Shown: piece after piece, positions 16,742 to 63,449 of the stretch
Layout of the letters: every line of letters begins with the position of its first letter
How positions within the stretch are numbered: the stretch's first letter is position 1
DNA from: Octopus vulgaris
Taxonomy: Eukaryota
DNA length: 64,000 nt
Assembly (NCBI GenBank): GCA_951406725.2
Contig: OX597827.1
Location: forward strand, 7,688,001 to 7,752,000
Direction: 5' to 3'
Position numbers and translations under genes: made by a program
The notes under the pieces: model-generated
Seen by the model: the letters and a program-made list of their open reading frames with translations, nothing else
Told to the model about the DNA's origin: nothing
The model's database searches: none

Positions 16742-17788
16742 CAAAGTCATATTAAAATTTCTGGAATGTTAAAATTTAATTTTAATTTAATCAGTGTTCT
16801 CTCGAAAATTCTTAACTGTTACTTTCTTACATATTTATGACTGAAAATATTTCATTATTAACATTATTGAAAAATAATGTTAAGACTTATTATTGAACAA
16901 CCAAATGCAGAATTTTCAAATGACTTTCTTCTTGTGAATTACACAATATTTTTTTTTTTAGAAAAATTATTATGTTGAGAACGATATATTTTATTTGAAA
17001 GTATTTCTTCAGAATTCAAAGAAAGAGGGTATGTTTTGAATTACTTTTCCAAATATTTTTCCTCTGCTCTTGCAATACACTGAATTTAAAGTAAAAGATT
17101 GGTTAACTTAAAGTAATCTTTCATGTAAACATGAGATGTATTTTGAATACGTTGCTGCTTTTTGTTTGTAATCAGGAAGTATTTAAAATATTCAAAAGAG
17201 AACATGGAATAAAATCTATTTATTTGATGAATATATTTTAAAATCTGAATAGTATATATTGATTTCAGATTATATAGACTATAAGTCTGATTTTGTGCAT
17301 TTTAAATGTCTATAGAGTCTTTCTCAAGCAACTTTCTATATCATTTGAATTTTAGCTTATCAATGAATTGCATATGGCAAATAGTTTAGTCTTAATTTGA
17401 CTTTTTAAATATATTTTAATTAGCCGAATTCCTTCTGTTTTTTTGTTTTTTTTAGCATTACTCATTGCTAAATTGTTTTCACTGGATCCTCAAAAACATT
17501 AATGCATTTGTTAAAAAAAACTTTTATCTGGATCATTTTCTAAAATTATTATTATTCTAAAATTTTAGAAATTATTATCATTGTGAATAGCATTCACATG
17601 GATTGAATTTGATAGATCACTTCTAAAGCAGCTTCAAAGAGATGGTGTCCTGAAATTATTCCAAAATTTGAATTTAACCCTTACCATAGATGAAATTTTT
17701 GCCGGTGATGTGATATGCTAATCATATGCAAATCAGTTCCTGCAACCTCTTTGTATTGGCCAGTAAAAATAAAATGTGTGTACTACAT

Positions 17789-18199
17789 AGGCGCAGGAGT
17801 GGCTGTGTGGTAAGTAGCTTGCTAACCAGCCACATGGTTCCAGGTTCAGTCCCACTGCGTGGCATCTTGGGCAAGTGTCTTCTGCTATAGCCCCGGGCCG
17901 ACCAATGCCTTGTGAGTGGATTTGGTAGACGGAAACTGAAAGAAGCCTGTCGTATATATGTATATATATACAAGTGTGTGTGTATGTGTTTGTGTGTCTG
18001 TGTTTGTCCCCCTAGCATTGCTTGACAACCGATGCTGGTGTGTTTACGTCCCCGTCACTTTGCGGTTCGGCAAAAGAGACCGATAGAATAAGTACTGGGC
18101 TTACAAAAGAATAAGTCCCGGGGTCGATTTGCTCGACTAAAGGCGGTGCTCCAGCATGGCCGCAGTCAAATGACTGAAACAAGTAAAAGAAAGAATAAA
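17789..18199 (+). mobile_element. SINE family A, full length (young subtype)
   Basis: Nearly identical to 49383-49803. Confidence 0.93.
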
Positions 18200-19194
18200 A
18201 ACAACATATGAAATGTGGAGAACTCAGGAAAGTGCCCCACGATCAAAACAAATGAACAGACATCCCTGAGTCTCAAGTGCACATGCACAGAACCAAGTAT
18301 ATCTGATTCCCATGCAGTAAATATTAATATATAGTTGGTTATTTCACAGAGATATTAGGATTAAGAGCAGTTATTTAAAGCTGAAAAAATTATAATTTCA
18401 CTGCAATAAATAAATAATTAAATAATAATGCCCAATTACTTACTTCGAAATGCTTAAATGATAAGTAGTTTTAAAAAAGATGTGATTGCTATAAAGTAAG
18501 ACTCTATATAAAATTTTCTTAATGTATAAATTGAATATGTAATTTAGCCATAACTGAACATTTGCAGAATTCTTTGATTGTGGTCAATGTTCCATATATT
18601 AACTACAGACAATTCTATTAATGCTCACTTTAGCATAACCAAAGATCCTATATGGTTTTATGCCTTAAATTCTAGATTTCTAAATTAAAATTGCTATGAC
18701 ATCATGCTTATTCCATGATCAAGTCTGTATTTAAGGAAATTGCTTCTTAAATATTCAAGATGATGAATTTTTTTTGTATAAAATATACTATTGCAACTAT
18801 GGTTAAGTATTGAATAAGCATCACTTTTAAATAAGTACTGGGTCAATTTGTTTAACTTAACCCTTCAAGGTGATCCCCAAGGATGACCACAGTCCAGTGA
18901 CTGAAACAAACGATTAAAAACAAGTTTAAATGACCTCCAATTTTAAGTCCTGTCAAGTCGATGGTTTTAGTCCCCCTTTTTTTATGGTAGAGGAAAGTGG
19001 ACCTTTAAAATCTAACAAGTCAAGTCTATGATTTGCCTTTGATCTTCATTTGAAATGACTGCAATTCTCTTTGAACTTGTGATGGTTTGAATAGAAATTT
19101 CTTTGATGTTTGTACTTTTCTTCGTTTTTGTCCTGTTCAAGTCATAATTTTCATTCTGTGTTTAAGACAAGACATCCTATGAATATATATATAC

Positions 19195-19233
<39 letters not shown>

Positions 19234-19242
<9 letters not shown>

Positions 19243-19644
19243 TAAAAAGAATTCCAACCTTGTCTGATTTTCACGTTTTATTTACAATCTTATAATGATA
19301 TATTATAAGATAATATATTATAATTGAATAAAATAAAATGAAATAGTAGAATGTTAAATGTTCATTCTGATTGAACTAGTACTTTCATGCATTGAAATCT
19401 GCAATCTTCGGGTTCATGTAGTAGTGTTGACAGTCATGCTTCACAATTTTTGACTGGCTCAGGAACCGGACCTAATCCTCGGGACCGTATTCTTCCACCG
19501 CGAGGAGAGTGGATAACTGTGGCAATTCTAGAGCTAATACTTTATTTTATTCAATTATAATATATTATCTTATAATATATCATTATAAGATTGTAAATAA
19601 AATGTGAAAATCAGACAAGGTTGGAATTCTTTTTATTAATATAT
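19234..19644. mobile_element. Fold-back element with ~104-bp inverted arms around a hammerhead-containing spacer; probable PLE relic
   Basis: 19234-19337 is the reverse complement of 19541-19644 with about one mismatch; it begins at a (TA)n tract. Confidence 0.8.
19372..19416 (-). ncRNA. Minimal type-I hammerhead ribozyme motif (U4C core variant)
   Basis: UGAAC CCGAAGA UUGCA GAUUUCAA UGCAU GAAA GUAC UA GUUCA: 5-bp stem I, 4-bp stem II, palindromic AGUACU stem III. Confidence 0.75.
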
Positions 19645-19668
19645 TCTTCTATACACAATCACACACAC

Positions 19669-19700
<32 letters not shown>

Positions 19701-19704
<4 letters not shown>

Positions 19705-19875
19705 GTAAAATAATATGTGACAATTATTCGGTAGCCAAAATAAAACTCTGAGTTTCGGATGCCAAGGTGTTTTATCTTGGCTACCGAATAATTGTAACAT
19801 ATTATTTTACAGATAAATTTCCTCTATTTGCATAATATTGAGGTCTCTTTCTTTTTTGTTATCTTACCATTTTTA

Positions 19876-19878
<3 letters not shown>
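19701..19878. mobile_element. PLE-like relic: 46-bp inverted arms with half a hammerhead in the loop
   Basis: 19701-19746 pairs with 19769-19814. The loop contains minus-strand CGAAACTCAGAGT, as in 31071-31108. The tail matches 57797-57851 in reverse complement. Flanked by (TA)n. Confidence 0.7.
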
Positions 19879-19916
<38 letters not shown>

Positions 19917-19952
19917 CAGAATAAAGACAAATCCAAATGTTAATTTTTTGAA

Positions 19953-19990
<38 letters not shown>

Positions 19991-20564
19991 TTCAAGTGAG
20001 TAAACAAATGAAAGAAAGTTATTATTTAAAACAGTTTGATACCCTCTTGCAACTTAAAGGTACTGGCATCAAGCCTATGGAACTTTAAGTTTGCACAGGG
20101 CCATATTGAACTGTTCTAAATGCTCATAAAACATGTGTTAAATGCATTTAAACTATTAGTTACAAATTTTGGCACAATGCCAGCAATTTTGAGGGAGTGG
20201 TCTAATCAATTACATCGACCCCCAGTGCCCAACTGGTTATTATATAAACTCCCAAAGAATTTAAAGACTAAGTTGACATTCACATAATTTGAACTCAGAA
20301 ATTAATGATGGACGAAATGCTGCTAAGCATATTGCCTGGTACGCTAATGGTTATGCCAGTTTGCTGCCTCTTTTAAAAATTGGCCAGCAAGCTACTACAG
20401 AAGGGGGAACCCTATATCTCTCCATTTCTGGCTGTGTGCTCTGTATCATGAAGCTAAACAACTCCTGACAAATGCAGTTAAAATATCAAGATTTGTTTTG
20501 TCTTTATCCTGTGTTATACAACTCACTTCTTTAACAATATAATCTGTCCTTGCTTTGCTAATAT

Positions 20565-20800
20565 TTATTTCTTTATTTCCCACAGGGGGCTAAACATAGA
20601 GGGGATAAACAAGGACAGACAAAGGGATTAAGTCGATTACATCGACGCCAGTGCGTAACTGGTACTTATTTTAATTGACCCTGAAAGGATGAAAGGCAAA
20701 GTCAACCTTGGCAGAATTTGAACTCAGAGCATAATGGAAAGATGAAATACTGCTAATCGTTTCGCCCGGCGTGCTAACAATTCTGCTAGCTCACTGCCTT
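20565..20800 (-). mobile_element. SINE family C
   Basis: Reverse complement of 56537-56768. Diverged copies lie near 4800-5460, 16420-16640, 20170-20370, 32900-33100 and 48820-48915. Confidence 0.85.
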
Positions 20801-20959
20801 GCTTTGCTAATATTGTTAGTACAACTAGGATATATGAATGGAATGTTCAACAGGCTCAGAGTCACAAGTTCTGGTAAAGTGTATTACATCAAAGCATATC
20901 CTTCAATAGATATATGTATATTATTTACAATTGTAGTTAGTATTGTTATTATCTAAAAC

Positions 20960-21612
20960 AATTTAATTTGGGCCCATGCAACTTGTAGTTTCAACTGTGG
21001 TTCCAGAAATTCTGAGCTGGAAACTACAGCCTAGAAGACAAGCCTCATCCTAGAAGATCTGTAGAGCTTGACAAGGACGTCCAGCCAACCCTAGTGGAAG
21101 AAAATCCCATCGTAACTGTTGAGAAACTAGCAGAAAATCTTGGATTTGGTCATTCAACCTTTCATCGACACCTACACTAGAAGAAAAACAACCATCTTTG
21201 GTTTCAAGATGAAAGGTGTTCTTCCATCAGGATAATGCTCAGCCACATACAGCGAGGATGACATTCCAAAGGCTGGAGAAGTTTGAATGGGAAACGATAC
21301 CCCACACACCATATTCATCAGACATTGCTGCACTTGATTATCATTTATTTTGCAGTCTTCAAAATGTTTTGGGCAGGAAAAATATGAATTCTGCAGATGA
21401 GGTCAGAACAGTACTGGAGGAATATTTTCTGTCACGGACAAGTGAATTTTTGAAGAAGGGGCCTTGCAAATCTATAAGATAGCTGAAAGAGCAGTGTAGA
21501 AAATGAAGAAGAGTATATTTTAGATTTTAAAAAAACCAACAACTTTGTTTATCTTAATTTTGAAAAATAAAAGAAATATGAAGAACTGCATTATTTATGG
21601 GATGACACAATA
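20960..21612 (+). mobile_element. Decayed, internally deleted mariner transposon (DD34D-type)
   Basis: FFHQDNAQPH...IPHTPYSSDIAALDYHLF matches mariner HDNARPH / HPPYSPDLAPSDYHLF. Upstream HTH remnant LEDKPHPRR...EENPIVTVEKLAENLG. TIR-like end ttatttatgggatgacacaata. Confidence 0.9.
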
Positions 21613-21624
21613 TATATATCTATA

Positions 21625-22027
21625 TGTTAGTTAGTTAGTTTGTTAATTTTTTGGCTCAAACAGCAAAAAGCAAGGCCATGAAGGGGGACATGGAGTTATG
21701 TACAGGGTGGATGTTCATGCAAAGAGTTCAGGTCACTTGTGGTCAAGGGAGACTTTGAACCGAGCGGTCGTCGGCATCTTCACTATCTCGTCCGGCAGCT
21801 TATTCCACGGATCCGCAACCCGGACGGAGAAAGCCCCTATCCTTCGATTGAGATGAAATTGTCACAGATAGAGCTTTTTGGAGTGACCCCGCAGCGGACG
21901 CTCTGGAGCAGGAGTGAAGAACAGCTCTTTCGAGAGGTTACACTTTCCACTTATGATGTTGTGAGCAAGAATGAGATCACCACGGCGTCGTCGTTTTTCT
22001 AGAGAATAAAGGTCGAGCGTCTTCAGA
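21625..22027 (-). mobile_element. CR1-type LINE 3' end with (TAAC)n tail
   Basis: LKTLDLYSLEKRRRRGDLI...LRGHSKKL...FSVRVADPWNKLP...FKVSLD is the typical CR1 ORF2 C-terminus; it contains stops. Confidence 0.88.
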
Positions 22028-22235
22028 TATGTGTGTATCTTTGTGTTCATGTTTGTCCCCCACCACCACTTGATAACTGGCGTTGGTGTGTTTGTATCAC
22101 CATTACTTGGTAGTTCATCAAAAGAACCCAATAGAATAATTACCAGGCTTAACAAAAAGTAAATACTGGGATCAATTCATTTGACTAAAAATTTAAGCTG
22201 GTGCATGTCTTACTTGTTAGTTGTTAGGGTGTTGT

Positions 22236-24859: not shown

Positions 24860-25131
24860 CTATGCATACGATAATTTGGCTACTGATGGAAATGGCTTGG
24901 CATATGATGTGAAACTGTTTTTTTCTGGTAAATTCCAACATTCTGAAGATGTATTCTGATTGTCGCTGTTTACAGAATTCTTTTTTAAATTATTAGTTTC
25001 ATTTTTGTGGTCAACTTTTGTTTGATAAAAACATCTGGAAGAGGGTTTGATATCTACAGGTTTAGTTAGTACTTGTACTGGCCTGTTTTTGTCTGTGTTC
25101 TGAAGTTGTTTATATTTGCTAGAGTGGACAT
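24860..25131 (-). CDS. Terminal coding exon of the cytoplasmic tail of a second gene, probably a protocadherin
   Basis: Strong acceptor ttttcttttcctctttacag|AT. Phase 1 matches the donor at 28870, giving ...YEELP-D-VHSSKYKQ...PFPSVAKLSYA*, open for 90 codons in very AT-rich DNA. Confidence 0.8.
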
Positions 25132-25262
25132 CTGTAAAGAGGAAAAGAAAACATATAAAATAAGAAAATAACATTTACATCCATTAAACTAAGGTCATTT
25201 TTAAGATTGTAGTTTTTTGGACCATTAATCATACATTTAGAAATTTACAATATTTAGACCTA

Positions 25263-31043: not shown

Positions 31044-31189
31044 TTAAAGCAGCAGAAAATTCTACAAAACCTGTTACTCTGAGTTTCGTGTTGCCGTTCA
31101 TCGGACAGTTTTTGCTAGCAAAAGCTGTCCGTTGAACGGCAATGTGAAACTCAGAGTAACGGGTTTTGTAGAATTTTCTGCTGCTTTAA
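31044..31189. mobile_element. Palindromic PLE-like relic with a hammerhead motif on each arm
   Basis: Near-perfect palindrome centred on gctagc (31114-31119). Arm consensus is CUGU CCGAUGA ACG GCAA CGU GAAA CUCAGAG UA ACAG. Confidence 0.78.
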
Positions 31190-31195
31190 TTATAG

Positions 31196-37340: not shown

Positions 37341-37347
37341 AATATAT

Positions 37348-37824
<477 letters not shown>

Positions 37825-42118: not shown

Positions 42119-42659
42119 GTATATTTGTGTGTGTGTATATATATATATATATACTCATATATGCGTTTAAACACATATACATGCAATACATACATACACA
42201 TACACATGTCTCACATAGAAGACCCATTCAGAAGTGGATTGAAATGCTATACTTTTTTTCTAGACACAGAAAGTGTTTATTAACAGAAGTGTCAAATCAT
42301 ATTTTAAAGGTGACAGCTTGAGAAAAAAGAAAAATGTTATAAAAAATAAATGCAACTATTCTACGTGTTAAAGCAAATAAATATCATTTAGCATTTTTAG
42401 AATGAATACGTTGCTCTTTTGGCCATCACAGTAACAAATTATGGTAAAATACTTTGGACACTTCTCACACTAGATCAGACAAATTGAGCAACCAACTGAA
42501 AAGTTTTATGCTAAAAATGTCAATGCATGAATGCCGCAAAGGTGAACTTTATGCGTGCCTTGAAAACAAAAGTAGAAAACACATACGGTAAAATGAGTAA
42601 TTTTTGTCAGTATATAATAACAAGTTATATATATATATAGATATGTATATATATATATA

Positions 42660-42870
42660 GTTAATCCAAACAAGAAAGCACAAAAAAACACAACAACGAG
42701 AGGACGTGGAACAAATATAGTATTATTGGACGCTCAGGAAAGAAGGAAAGGAGGAGGATTTAACGTTTCGAGTGGAGCTCTTCGTCGGAAACATAGGAGA
42801 AAGAAAGATCCTGAGACGGGAAGACAGAGGAAAAAAAATCACCAACGGTACACACGCGGTCACATTTTGA
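42660..42870 (-). mobile_element. PLE-like LTR relic with hammerhead motif at 42758-42792
   Basis: GUUU CCGACGA A GAG CUCCA CUC GAAA CG UU AAAU; flanked by (TA)n on both sides. Confidence 0.7.
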
Positions 42871-42874
42871 ATAT

Positions 42875-42920
<46 letters not shown>

Positions 42921-46906: not shown

Positions 46907-47180
46907 CTTTGATACTTTGATATTTTGATAGGTTTCGGCCATTATTGGCCCAGGCCATGTCTAACTTAATAGCACCACCTGGTGAAGTCTTTCAAGTCAG
47001 AATTTGGGCACTATGGCCCACTCAAGTAGAGAGTTATTGTTTACAGAGACATATCCGGGTGTAGGGGGTTTATCCGGGATTTCTTGAAGGAATCTGTCCA
47101 AAGACTTCTTGAACCCTATAGGGTCAGTTTCTGTTTTAATGTGTTTTGGTGTAATGTTAAAGAGAGCGGGGCCAATATAT
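46907..47180 (-). mobile_element. LINE (CR1/L2 group) 3' end with short tandem tail
   Basis: GPALFNITPKHIK...FKKSLDRFLQEIPDKPPTPGY...NNSLLEW* followed by a short 3'UTR and (atcaaagt)-like repeats. Confidence 0.8.
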
Positions 47181-47971
47181 GTTGCTGATGTCAAGAATTC
47201 TATAAACTTTTGAGAGAACTTGAAATAAATCATTTTCAGAACATTGGTTTTCAAGGCACATTTTATTTTCAAAAGGTTTTTCAACCCAATATTTACAGAC
47301 TATATTTATAATATTTATAGGTTGATGTGATGTGCCTTGATGTATATAATGTTTCAAAAATGATAACATATAAATATAAATATATATACACATACACACA
47401 CAGACTCACACATACTCACATTCACACTCTCATGCTTACACACGCACATGTTCATGCACACCCAGACTCACACCCACTCACTCATGCACACTCATTCACA
47501 CACACACACACATGCACACACACAAACATGCATACACATGCACAGGCATAATGTGCATGACTGTCTTACATGTTTCTCTTGCATTCACCTTTGGTGAATG
47601 TAGCCTTGATGGAAGTTAATGTAATCAGCAGGTATCCAATGTCCATTGGATGTTTCAGCCTTGGACAGGTACACCCAACTGCTGACAAGTCAGCAATGAT
47701 GGCCAAATCACTGTCCACCTTCTCTTGTCTTGTTTTCACCTTAGTTCTTCTGTCTTGTTTTGATTTCTAAATGCACTCAGTGACTTACCCAGCTTTAGAG
47801 TTCAACTAAACGAAACTTGGACTATGATATGAGTCTTCCTCACTGTTTTGCTTTGGATTTATAGAAATACACATGGTATTCTAGATACTGCTGAGCTGTT
47901 GTGCAATTTAGATTTAAATCATGCTATATAGTTATATATATATGTATACATATGTACACACATATATATAA

Positions 47972-48100
47972 GCCTTTCTGTGGAAGAGCGTAGGCTCAAA
48001 ACGTTAAAGACTTTTTCACTTCCTGAGCATTATACTAATACATCTGTTTGTTGTCTACACCACCTGTCTTCGTCTTTTGTTTTTTTGAGAATTCTCCCTA
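47972..48100 (+). mobile_element. PLE-like LTR fragment with decayed hammerhead
   Basis: cttt CTGTGGAA GAGC GTAG GCTC AAAA CG TT aaag. Confidence 0.7.
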
Positions 48101-48143
48101 TACATATATATATATATTACATGAAAAAAAAATATATATATAT

Positions 48144-48364
48144 ATTACATGAAAAAATGCGAGCCTGAAAAGTAATATTCTTAAGATTATAAACCTGGAA
48201 AAGTACAGTACAAGTTATTACACCTGTAAAAGTATAGGACAAATTATTACTTCAAGTAAAGTAAAGAATAAGAAACTTTTACAGGTGTAATAACTTGTCC
48301 TGTACATTTCCAGGTTTATAATCTTAAGAATATTACTTTTCATGCTCGCATTTTTCCATGTAAT
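48144..48364. repeat. Fold-back element with 90-bp inverted arms
   Basis: 48144-48233 is the reverse complement of 48275-48364 with a few mismatches; it starts at (TA)n. Confidence 0.85.
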
Positions 48365-62227: not shown

Positions 62228-62422
62228 ATTCGCCATGATAGATTGCTAACCACTACACATTCTTTATTTTCTCTCTTTGTTTCTTTCTGTGTTCCTTTCT
62301 GTGAATGAGCATAGGCTCGAAATGTTAAAGACTTTTTCACTTCCCAAGCATTATACTAATACATCTGTTTGTTGTCTACATCACCTGTCTTCGTCTTTTG
62401 TTTTTTTTGTGAATTCTCCCTA
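62228..62422 (+). mobile_element. PLE-like LTR fragment with decayed hammerhead
   Basis: cttt CTGTGAAT GAGC ATAG GCTC GAAA TG TT aaag; same family as 47972-48100; flanked by (TA)n. Confidence 0.72.
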
Positions 62423-63449
62423 TATGCATATGCATATATATATATATATATATATGGGACGCAAACTTCTTACCACATAGCCATGGCAGTGGATAGATCA
62501 AATATAATTAAATGTATAACTAGATTTGAACATTTGTTTCCTTTCTCTCATGTACCCACACATACACACACTTACATGCACACACACACACTCACACACA
62601 CACACACATACACACACACACAGATAGTTGCTCAAGGCAGTGTTGAATAAGGTATATTTGTGTAAAATCATACTTAATATGTTCATGTATATTTGGATAT
62701 GATGGGACCCTTCACTGTGGAAATGGTCTTGAGAAACATGTCTCCTCCTAGACAGCATATGTAAAATAAAATTGGGTTGTGAATGACATCATTGGATTGT
62801 AGGATGCATGTGTTTCTGCTTTCTTTCACATCATCAGCTACTCACACCAAATCTGCCTTTCATAAGTCTGATAAGAACAGTTTGTTCATTTATTATAAAA
62901 ACAAATAGTACAATGCTAATCAAAATTTAATCAAGTTAAAATTAAATTAATAAAGTTTCATGAAGCAGTGTTGAATAAAGTATATGTGTGTAAACTCATA
63001 CTTAACATGTTTGATTACACTCAGATATGGGAAAACATTTTGCTGTGAAAACTTCATGTTTTGTATTCTAAAGTACCTGGACGTTCTTCAGTCTGCCTGA
63101 AGATTGCTATAGACAAAGTTTTCACTATAAACAAGAAACTTAAAGTCATGGGAAAATATCATCTGTTTAATCATCAGTTTGAGAAGGGAAACACAATAAG
63201 CTTGAATCTCACTTAATCAAGATGCAAGGTTTCAATTCCTTTCAGCATATCCTTTATCCACTCTTGAATTATTTTTTTAAAATGTTTTATTGTTATTCTC
63301 TTCTTCTTCATCTTCATCATCATTCATCACCGCTGCCGCCACCACAACCACCACCACCACCACCACCACCACCTCCACCACCACCACCACCTCCACCACC
63401 TCCACCACCACCACCACATATATATATATATACTATATATATATACATA

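What the first reader, a model, noticed from the sequence alone, without database searches (positions are those of the whole stretch)
19234..19644. Apparently intact hammerhead in the loop of a 104-bp fold-back, between two tandem genes and on their sense strand
Seen: minus 19416-19372 reads UGAAC-CCGAAGA-UUGCA-GAUUUCAA-UGCAU-GAAA-GUAC-UA-GUUCA, with predicted cleavage between 19377 and 19376, inside near-perfect inverted arms. Known: PLE-associated minimal type-I hammerheads have palindromic stem III and cleave as dimers. Unusual here: C at core position 4 and a U-U apposition at the base of stem II. Inferred: a young non-autonomous PLE or retrozyme-like element. Its position downstream of one gene and upstream of the next promoter means it could cut read-through RNA.
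Basis: partly seen in the sequence, partly recalled or inferred. Interest (0 to 1): 0.8.

Follow-up and report, generated by a model that had tools for sequence, protein, structure and literature searches.

The report
Penelope fold-back hinged on 18S rRNA
The hammerhead-shaped motif is real and belongs to an abundant repeat in what is likely an octopus genome; here two cut-short copies of that repeat lie head to head with an 86-base scrap of 18S ribosomal RNA sequence between them, likely a dead Penelope-like jumping-gene insertion whose copying enzyme jumped onto ribosomal RNA, and the lone ribozyme is predicted to cut weakly if at all.

Summary
The arms 19234-19337 and 19541-19644 pair at 103 of 104 bases. 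The minus-strand type I hammerhead at 19416-19372 was matched by 0 of 20,000 shuffles.

Public contigs split the 411 bp into three parts:
- 19456→19234 (minus, 223 nt): the 5'-truncated end of an abundant repeat that carries the hammerhead.
- 19541-19644 (plus): a second, 104-nt copy of the same end, inverted.

Head-to-head truncated ends in (TA)n are the known footprint of Penelope-like elements (PLEs). No PLE ORF could be linked.

Neither 'unusual' core feature is new. U10.1·U11.1 and U4C are published natural variants. C4 marks a subfamily here: canonical U4 holds 27-72% of depth in four runs.

Cutting protocadherin read-through RNA is unlikely. The motif is a lone copy of a type that needs a dimer, has two weakening changes, and lies 5.2 kb past the stop codon.

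The most interesting part is the rRNA hinge. Its polarity fits priming from both DNA ends with a template jump onto 18S rRNA. I found no PLE-rRNA chimera in my searches, but no run showed the junctions independently.

The parts
19200..19239 (.). (AT)20 microsatellite, left flank and likely target; its last 6 bases also count as the arm's end, so a target-site duplication cannot be resolved
   Evidence: sequence
19234..19456 (-). Long copy, 223 nt: 5'-truncated 3' end (pLTR-sized) of an abundant hammerhead-bearing repeat, likely a Penelope-like element
   Evidence: contigs of all four runs tile it; X13 record 4 matches 19365-19456 with 1 difference and runs on for 91 letters of other sequence; X2 loose ends behind 19449 continue likewise
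19372..19416 (-). Type I hammerhead motif with C4, U10.1·U11.1, palindromic helix III (AGUACU) and H17 = A; predicted cut 19377/19376
   Evidence: family variants table 3
19234..19337 (+). Left arm of the fold-back, which is the last 104 nt of the long copy
19455..19456 (+). 2-nt overlap (TG) shared by the repeat and 18S rRNA; 4 of 5 bases agree over 19452-19456
   Evidence: tables 7 and 8: family contigs align up to 19456, rRNA contigs align from 19455 (one from 19452)
19455..19540 (+). 86-nt 18S rRNA fragment, same sense as the short copy and antisense to the long copy
   Evidence: Rfam RF01960 over 19511-19540, model positions 141-170, E 8e-4, below gathering score; depth about 3e5 in RNA-like run X13 against 2-8e3 on the repeat; contigs run off both ends into rRNA-like sequence
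19541..19644 (+). Short inverted copy, 104 nt, the right arm; it lacks the hammerhead; private CpG>TpG change at 19603; blunt junction with the 18S piece
   Evidence: G at the mirror site 19275 has no variant listed at >=4%
24860..25132 (-). Last coding exon and stop codon of a protocadherin gene (context)
   Evidence: 79% identity over 90 aa to P0001
28862..29035 (-). Preceding protocadherin exon (context)
   Evidence: 93% over 58 aa
3..344 (-). Start of the next protocadherin gene (context)
   Evidence: 50% over 116 aa

Best explanation
The 411-bp fold-back is two 5'-truncated copies (223 and 104 nt) of the 3' end of an abundant hammerhead-bearing repeat, joined head to head through 86 nt of 18S rRNA sequence at the edge of a TA run; it is likely a single dead-on-arrival insertion of a Penelope-like retroelement, and its lone hammerhead is predicted to be a nearly inactive passenger. 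Inferred steps. (1) The PLE protein cut both strands of AT-rich DNA. (2) Each 3' end primed cDNA on the element's sense RNA. (3) The left cDNA stopped after 223 nt; the right one left its template after 104 nt, jumped without homology onto 18S rRNA and copied 86 nt. (4) The two cDNA ends annealed through a 2-nt (4 of 5) microhomology and were filled in. (5) Two private substitutions (19397, 19603) came later or during copying. The hammerhead comes from a subfamily whose master likely changed U4 to C.
For: SHOWN. Three-part anatomy, overlap and polarity. The repeat is abundant in four coded organisms: 1323/684/280/120 contigs were laid in X2/X3/X7/X13, rDNA contigs included. It continues upstream of 19456 in DNA and RNA-like contigs (tables 7, 8). 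Within the 45-nt hammerhead, differences at >=4% occur only at position 4 (19410; canonical U in 27/48/72/44% of summed depth, 65/49/30/5 contigs) and in loop II (19394, 19397, 19399); the 19399 change adds a fifth pair to helix II. The partner base of the 19410 CpG (19409) has no listed variant, so U4 copies are not CpG decay of C4. The same window holds a second TA-flanked, about 210-nt unit with a minimal hammerhead (minus 42788) and another head-to-head fold-back with hammerhead-like cores (about 31047-31192). LITERATURE. Inverted 5'-truncated copies and (TA)n targets are PLE hallmarks (PMC8557442 passages). pLTRs of 193-218 bp, head-to-head junctions, microhomology 5' junctions and unrelated DNA captured between solo pLTRs are reported (PMC3846280 passages). 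A purified Poseidon PLE cuts and extends both strands, prefers AT-rich DNA and does not need hammerhead cleavage to insert (PMC11167929). L1 forms sense 28S rRNA chimeras by template switching or ligation (PMC13174262 passages). A monomeric minimal PLE hammerhead showed no cleavage (PMC4209133).
Against: No RT or GIY-YIG ORF could be tied to this repeat: no genome was held, and the metagenome scans gave 0 hits and 3 non-hammerhead hits. PLE membership therefore rests on the RNA motif and architecture alone. No contig in any of the four runs covers 19544-19562, and none of the 32 pieces shown (2,400 not shown) spans 19455, so neither junction was seen outside this assembly. The lack of variants in the hammerhead stems is weak evidence of selection, because 19236-19302 and 19411-19456 also list none. 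Summed contig depth is not copy number. The motif lacks the G10.1-C11.1 pair that PMC4209133 calls highly conserved. A target-site duplication and a 'tail' cannot be resolved inside the TA run. One locus cannot tell an RNA template from an rDNA template, since polarity matches by chance half the time.
Confidence: 0.7

Rival explanations
1. It is a PLE insertion, but the 18S piece came from rDNA during repair of the break (templated insertion), or the inversion arose by fold-back self-priming, not by a template jump onto rRNA.
For: rDNA is abundant in the DNA runs (depth 5e4-4e5 over 19456-19510 in X2 and X3). PMC3846280 favours self-priming on an antisense template for head-to-head junctions. 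The neighbouring fold-backs at about 31047-31192 and 19697-19818 have short, partly palindromic hinges.
Against: An 86-nt foreign insert replaces any palindrome at this hinge. The fragment lies in the transcribed 18S, has the same sense as the copy it abuts bluntly, and has microhomology only at the other end, as a jump followed by annealing predicts.
Confidence: 0.14
2. The parent repeat is a non-autonomous, retrozyme-like tandem or circular unit that uses PLE proteins in trans, and this locus is a truncated insertion of it.
For: Type I hammerhead with palindromic helix III. No ORF start downstream of the hammerhead. Present in RNA-like runs. Animal retrozymes are argued to be PLE derivatives (10.64898/2026.07.22.740005).
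Against: One hammerhead at the locus. No go-back joint among the 14 joints listed, and the 91 letters of X13 record 4 beyond 19456 lie on nothing in the stretch, so any unit would be longer than about 310 nt.
Confidence: 0.07
3. The composite is an assembly chimera of two high-copy repeats (PLE end and rDNA).
For: Neither junction was seen in four independent runs. The best holder has only 72% of the sampled words.
Against: Overlaps of 2 and 0 nt would not lead an assembler to join them. The arms differ by a CpG>TpG change absent from the family. Low-depth links between deep repeats, and human-like 18S records, are dropped from these contigs.
Confidence: 0.05
4. One reading: the hammerhead is active in place and cuts read-through RNA between two tandem protocadherin genes.
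For: It lies on the genes' sense strand (a 50% chance event). Helices I and II are in the minimum-energy fold even inside the fold-back. U·U is the best-tolerated mispair and a U4C viroid variant stays infectious (PMC3088659). The PAc hammerhead cleaves when its protein is added (PMC11167929).
Against: It is a single copy whose helix III needs a partner; the short arm has no hammerhead. U4C 'considerably decreases activity in vitro'. Seven AATAAA hexamers lie upstream on minus. The insertion is young and may be private. No cleavage ends were found in vivo for PAc.
Confidence: 0.03
5. It is a MITE or fold-back DNA transposon with 104-bp terminal inverted repeats and captured filler.
For: Near-perfect terminal inverted repeats in a TA context.
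Against: Family contigs run from the arm straight into the hammerhead region (X13 records 1 and 3, X2 records 9 and 10), and the 18S/right-arm junction has zero cover, so the composite is not a multi-copy unit.
Confidence: 0.01

Closest known systems
Insertion units of endonuclease-positive Penelope-like elements: pLTR plus adjacent inverted 5'-truncated copy (PMC8557442; PMC3846280)
   Same: pLTR-sized (223 nt) hammerhead-bearing end, head-to-head inverted shorter copy, TA target, microhomology junction, unrelated sequence between solo ends.
   Different: The captured sequence is an identifiable 86-nt 18S rRNA piece at the hinge in place of a palindrome. No ORF was linked. No resolved target-site duplication or tail.
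PLE hammerheads with small palindromic helix III, e.g. the D. willistoni Penelope and Hydra Poseidon rows of PMC4209133 Fig. S3
   Same: Type I, 4-5-bp helix I, U after the core and a U before GAAA (read from extracted text in which the GAAA column is detached), short helix III, H17 = A.
   Different: C at position 4: none of the 56 rows has it, but their descriptor fixed the core. Helix II is only 4 bp in this subfamily.
L1/rRNA chimeric insertions (28S/L1, 5S/L1; PMC13174262) and tripartite LINE chimeras (PMC2104539, search listing only)
   Same: An rRNA fragment fused to the 5' end of a truncated retroelement in one event; sense orientation is read as template switching or RNA ligation, opposite orientation as twin priming.
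   Different: A PLE-type element, 18S rather than 28S or 5S ('18S' has 0 occurrences in that paper's main text), and both signatures present in one insertion.
Non-LTR retrozymes of animals (PMC7229834, listing only; 10.64898/2026.07.22.740005)
   Same: Non-coding, type I hammerhead, PLE-related.
   Different: No tandem units, one hammerhead, no sign of circularity here.

Membership tests
Type I hammerhead ribozyme | Core CUGANGA ... GAAA ... UH | tested here: inconclusive
   This copy has C4 (one mismatch). Family contigs carry canonical U4 in 27-72% of depth. U4C is a known natural variant, and CYGANGA is used as a descriptor in PMC13481778.
Type I hammerhead ribozyme | Three-helix junction, helix I open-ended | tested here: met
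   Helix I 5 bp and helix II 4 bp in the minimum-energy fold; helix III only as a 6-nt palindrome; 0 of 20,000 shuffles.
Type I hammerhead ribozyme | G10.1-C11.1 pair | tested here: not met
   U·U instead; a known tolerated variant, not defining.
Type I hammerhead ribozyme | Match to an Rfam hammerhead model | tested here: not met
   No match at E<=10. The minimal motif at 42788 also gets none, so the test has little power for PLE-type motifs.
Type I hammerhead ribozyme | Site-specific self-cleavage | not testable with these tools
   Needs in vitro transcription; contigs cannot show RNA ends.
Penelope-like element (EN+) | RT plus GIY-YIG ORF in the parent element | tested here: inconclusive
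   No ORF in this copy; no genome held; metagenome scans gave nothing relevant. The family runs on at least 91 nt upstream.
Penelope-like element (EN+) | Hammerhead inside a roughly 200-bp terminal unit (pLTR) | tested here: met
   223-nt unit, cut site 143 nt from its 3' end. That the unit is a pLTR is inferred.
Penelope-like element (EN+) | Adjacent inverted 5'-truncated copy, head to head | tested here: met
   104-nt inverted copy of the same 3' end.
Penelope-like element (EN+) | Dispersed repeat in AT-rich or (TA)n targets | tested here: met
   (AT)20 flank; TA-rich, partly heterogeneous loose ends before 19250 in three runs; 120-1323 contigs laid per run.
Penelope-like element (EN+) | Optional 30-40-bp tail and target-site duplication | tested here: inconclusive
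   ATATAT at both ends fits either a duplication or element sequence; diverged contigs share about 10 more letters beyond 19234.
Non-LTR retrozyme | Tandem units, each with a hammerhead | tested here: not met
   One hammerhead at the locus; no go-back joint among the 14 listed. Units longer than the stretch laid are not excluded.
Non-LTR retrozyme | Circular RNA | not testable with these tools
   Only contigs were available.
MITE / TIR transposon | The TIR-bounded composite is multi-copy | tested here: not met
   Zero cover at 19544-19562 in four runs, while the parts are deeply covered.

The most novel reading that the evidence does not exclude
The hinge is a snapshot of PLE integration in vivo. 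A PLE reverse transcriptase primed from both ends of a break, copied sense RNA and jumped onto 18S rRNA, so head-to-head PLE inversions can arise by twin priming rather than by self-priming on antisense RNA. In addition, octopus PLE families have repeatedly spread with a U4C-weakened hammerhead (both descriptor hits in this window have C4, in unrelated repeats), which would mean that cleavage is dispensable or tuned down for PLE spread.
Probability: 0.4. Interest if true: 0.62.

Novelty: new variant of a known kind. Interest (0 to 1): 0.42.

Why it matters
How PLEs make their head-to-head inverted copies, and what their hammerheads do, are both open questions (PMC3846280, PMC11167929, PMC8557442).

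A host RNA of known polarity caught at the hinge tells which strand was the template and which end primed. A genome-wide count of such hinges would therefore test twin priming against antisense self-priming from sequence alone.

A large subfamily with C4 beside relatives with U4 is a natural experiment on whether cleavage matters for spread. Descriptors that fix CUGANGA would miss such families.

As a regulator of the protocadherin genes the locus is probably unimportant. A 104-bp duplex in read-through RNA would more likely be an A-to-I editing substrate (my inference, untested).

Tried and rejected
Whole genome: none held, so copy number and the parent ORF could not be obtained.

Rfam: no hammerhead at E<=10 in 18000-21000, 19330-19560 or 42650-42880, and nothing at gathering score in the window. 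The miRNA and snoRNA hits are TA-repeat or hairpin noise.

Vector or adapter origin: the plasmid search matched only the last 28-30 nt of the loop, within the 18S piece, in 2 unannotated records.

Metagenome scans: the family-specific pattern found 0 loci. The relaxed pattern found 3 loci, none with the core or helix I, and was rejected as chance. Viral contigs were not scanned.

Other family copies in the window: none beyond the two arms.

An N-terminal ORF starting at helix II, as in PAc: all three frames close within about 25 codons.

A candidate exon at minus 19152-19012: no homologue among 8 candidates, so an intronic position is not supported.

U4 copies as CpG decay of C4: rejected, since the partner base 19409 lists no variant.

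Dimer cofold of two 45-mers gave the intermolecular palindrome helix at -17.0 kcal/mol, with one helix I lost. This shows only that pairing is possible.

The missing cover at 19544-19562 is not proof of absence.

Earlier scan notes: nothing for this genome or sequence and nothing for PLE-rRNA capture.

Literature searches for a PLE-rRNA chimera and for cephalopod or C4 PLE hammerheads listed none. I saw only the top 14-20 rows of each, and most subscription papers are not held.

Full report
SETTING. The window is AT-rich, microsatellite-laden animal DNA. An exon 5 kb from the finding matches a protocadherin of the octopod Argonauta hians at 79% (1 hit among 17 candidates). tblastn places two last exons of one protocadherin at 29035-28862 and 25132-24863, and the start of another at 344-3, all on minus. 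I infer an octopus genome. No whole genome was held.

THE OBSERVATION. The arms 19234-19337 and 19541-19644 pair at 103 of 104 bases. The left arm runs into (AT)20; the right arm is followed by 26 unique bases and more TA. Helices I and II form in the minimum-energy fold, but the fold is not unusually stable (z -0.53); helix I pairs have probability about 0.4 in context. A structure descriptor hits only this site in the window, 0 of 20,000 loop shuffles and 0 of 40 window shuffles (2 of 20,000 and 2 of 40 when the palindrome rule is dropped). A looser descriptor with position 4 free hits 2 sites in the window, and 7 sites in 300 shuffled windows, never 2 in one. Rfam's hammerhead models do not match.

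WHAT THE LOOP IS. Rfam flagged 19511-19540 as eukaryotic small-subunit rRNA (model positions 141-170, E 8e-4, 19-20 bits, below the gathering score of 50). Of 24 runs listed, 20 hold part of 19150-19860, among them DNA-like runs of four coded organisms and RNA-like runs of one. I laid 4 of them on 19236-19562 at 80% likeness. Over 19236-19456 all four are tiled by many short contigs (1323, 684, 280 and 120 laid in all, rDNA contigs included), running from the arm into the hammerhead region without a break. Behind 19449-19456 the family goes on into other sequence: X13 record 4 matches 19365-19456 with one difference and continues for 91 letters, and 12 X2 contigs continue with similar letters. 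Over 19456-19543 depth in the RNA-like run jumps from thousands to about 300,000. Contigs enter at 19455 from one shared upstream sequence (16 in X3, 8 in X13) and leave at 19540 into one shared downstream sequence (6 in X3, 3 in X7). I recognise both as conserved 18S 5'-domain sequence (recalled; only the last 30 nt are backed by Rfam). So 19455-19540 is an 86-nt 18S piece, near-identical to the living rRNA (one listed difference, 19499, in X2 only). The repeat and the rRNA share TG at 19455-19456 (4 of 5 bases over 19452-19456); the right junction has no overlap. No contig of any run covers 19544-19562, and none of the 32 pieces shown spans 19455 (2,400 were not shown). The composite is therefore not a multi-copy unit, but its junctions are also not independently confirmed.

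THE HAMMERHEAD IN ITS FAMILY. Inside the 45-nt motif, one search lists differences at four places only. Position 4 (19410) is canonical U in 27, 48, 72 and 44% of summed depth (X2, X3, X7, X13; 65, 49, 30 and 5 contigs). The other three are in loop II: 19394; 19397, where this copy's base is nearly private; and 19399, which in diverged copies adds a fifth pair to helix II. In X13 the non-U4 depth (1385.6) equals that of one contig, record 4, so the deepest single contig there carries C4. The U4 share rises together with the loop II variants, and the other base of the same CpG (19409) lists no variant. I infer that U4 is ancestral and that a younger master with C4 expanded. Limits: the tool warns that summed depth is no copy number, X13 is RNA only by guess, and long stretches outside the motif also list no variants, so stem conservation is not evidence of selection here.

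KNOWN OR NEW. PMC4209133 (I read main text parts 1-3 of 4 and supplement parts 1-2 of 3, figures as extracted text) describes PLE hammerheads with minimal or palindromic helix III that need a dimer; a monomer showed no cleavage and multimers little. Its Fig. S3 rows for D. willistoni Penelope and Hydra Poseidon read as U after the core, a U before GAAA and H17 = A; the GAAA column is detached in the text, so the placement is my reading. None of the 56 rows has C4, but their descriptor fixed the core. PMC3088659 (passages and section 8) reports natural U10.1-U11.1 hammerheads and a viroid U4C variant with much lower in vitro activity (their ref. 30, not read). PMC13481778 (passages) searches with CYGANGA. 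PMC8557442 (12 of 22 passages) and PMC3846280 (10 passages) give the inverted 5'-truncated copy, (TA)n targets, pLTRs of about 200 bp, microhomology junctions, capture of unrelated DNA between solo pLTRs, and the antisense self-priming proposal. PMC11167929 (parts 1-2 of 4) shows a Poseidon protein cutting and extending both strands at AT-rich sites, hammerhead mutants inserting normally, protein-assisted cleavage, and no reads ending at the cut site. PMC13174262 (12 of 20 passages) catalogues L1-rRNA chimeras and reads their polarity as template switching or twin priming. PMC13282606 (passages and supplement search) gives Penelope-like elements 6.83% of the O. vulgaris genome, with 30 recently active Penelope families, and does not mention hammerheads. 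The retrozyme preprint (part 1 of 5; supplements closed, and they may list invertebrate families) defines retrozymes as tandem units. My searches (top rows only) listed no PLE-rRNA chimera and no cephalopod PLE hammerhead.

MECHANISM. Read along the minus strand, the insertion is: antisense of the last 104 nt of the element, antisense of 86 nt of 18S, then 223 nt of element sense. The first two parts are what one cDNA would be if it started at the right-hand DNA end, copied sense element RNA and jumped bluntly onto rRNA. The third is the complement of a second cDNA started at the left end. The microhomology lies where the two cDNAs would have to meet. The anatomy is shown; every step is inferred from one locus. 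RNA ligation before copying would give the same polarity. An rDNA template during repair, self-priming, a retrozyme-type parent and an assembly chimera remain possible (see rivals). The CpG>TpG difference private to the right arm (19603) speaks for a real, slightly aged insertion.

FUNCTION AT THE LOCUS. The short arm has no hammerhead, so a transcript would hold one copy, with helix III reduced to a palindrome, C4 and U·U. Seven AATAAA hexamers lie between the stop codon and the element on minus. I put cutting of read-through RNA at about 3%. Nothing here tested transcription of the locus.

VERDICT. The motif is real and the element is of a known kind. The rRNA hinge and the C4 subfamily are apparently unreported details that make a question about PLE mechanism testable. 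New variant of a known kind, interest 0.42. Earlier scan notes describe such fold-backs as ordinary in shark and fish genomes; they are unchecked leads and were not used as support.

Noticed in passing
window 42660-42870 (minus), core at 42788: About 210-nt unit flanked by (TA)n on both sides, with a minimal hammerhead (CCGACGA, 3-bp helix II starting G-C, GAAA-CG-UU, 4-bp helix I with one G-U). It also has C4 and is unrelated in sequence to the 19.2-kb repeat. With position 4 free, the window gives 2 hits, both C4; 300 shuffled windows gave 7 hits, none C4.
   Followed up: partly
window about 31047-31192: Head-to-head fold-back (88-nt arms, 90% alike) with a partly palindromic hinge. Each arm carries a degenerate hammerhead-like core with C4 (CCGAUGA at minus 31104; CCGUUGA in the other arm) on opposite strands; helix II is poor.
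   Followed up: partly
window 19697-19877: Second fold-back 53 nt right of the finding: 50-bp arms, 94% complementary, 22-nt loop, sharing 13 nt with the 31-kb fold-back around GAAAC. One arm runs on for about 60 nt before (TA)n, and that extension recurs at 57852-57798 (93% over 55 nt). It looks like another PLE end with an inverted copy.
   Followed up: partly
window 37346-37520, about 47975-48145, about 62295-62455 (+): Three copies (81-83% alike) of a fourth TA-flanked repeat end with decayed hammerhead-like halves. The two longer ones have U4 but U in place of A6, so C4 is not universal in this window.
   Followed up: partly
joints 19296-19354: A replacement variant of the family (57 nt replaced by the same 24 letters) is shared by X2, X3 and X7, which points to an older subfamily spanning three coded organisms.
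   Followed up: no
window 29035-64000: No cadherin-repeat exon for the upstream protocadherin was found in the 35 kb before exon 29035-28862, so its first intron is very long or these are shared 3' exons of a cluster.
   Followed up: no
window minus 19152-19012 and about 17790-17593: Short open frames with splice-like borders (47 codons ending IIDLTC; another ending at 17593). No homologue was found for the first; the second was not searched.
   Followed up: partly
window about 21020-21510; 21862-22176; 46997-47299: A decayed fragment that looks like a Tc1/mariner transposase and two fragments that look like LINE C-termini (recognised by eye, recalled, not tested).
   Followed up: no
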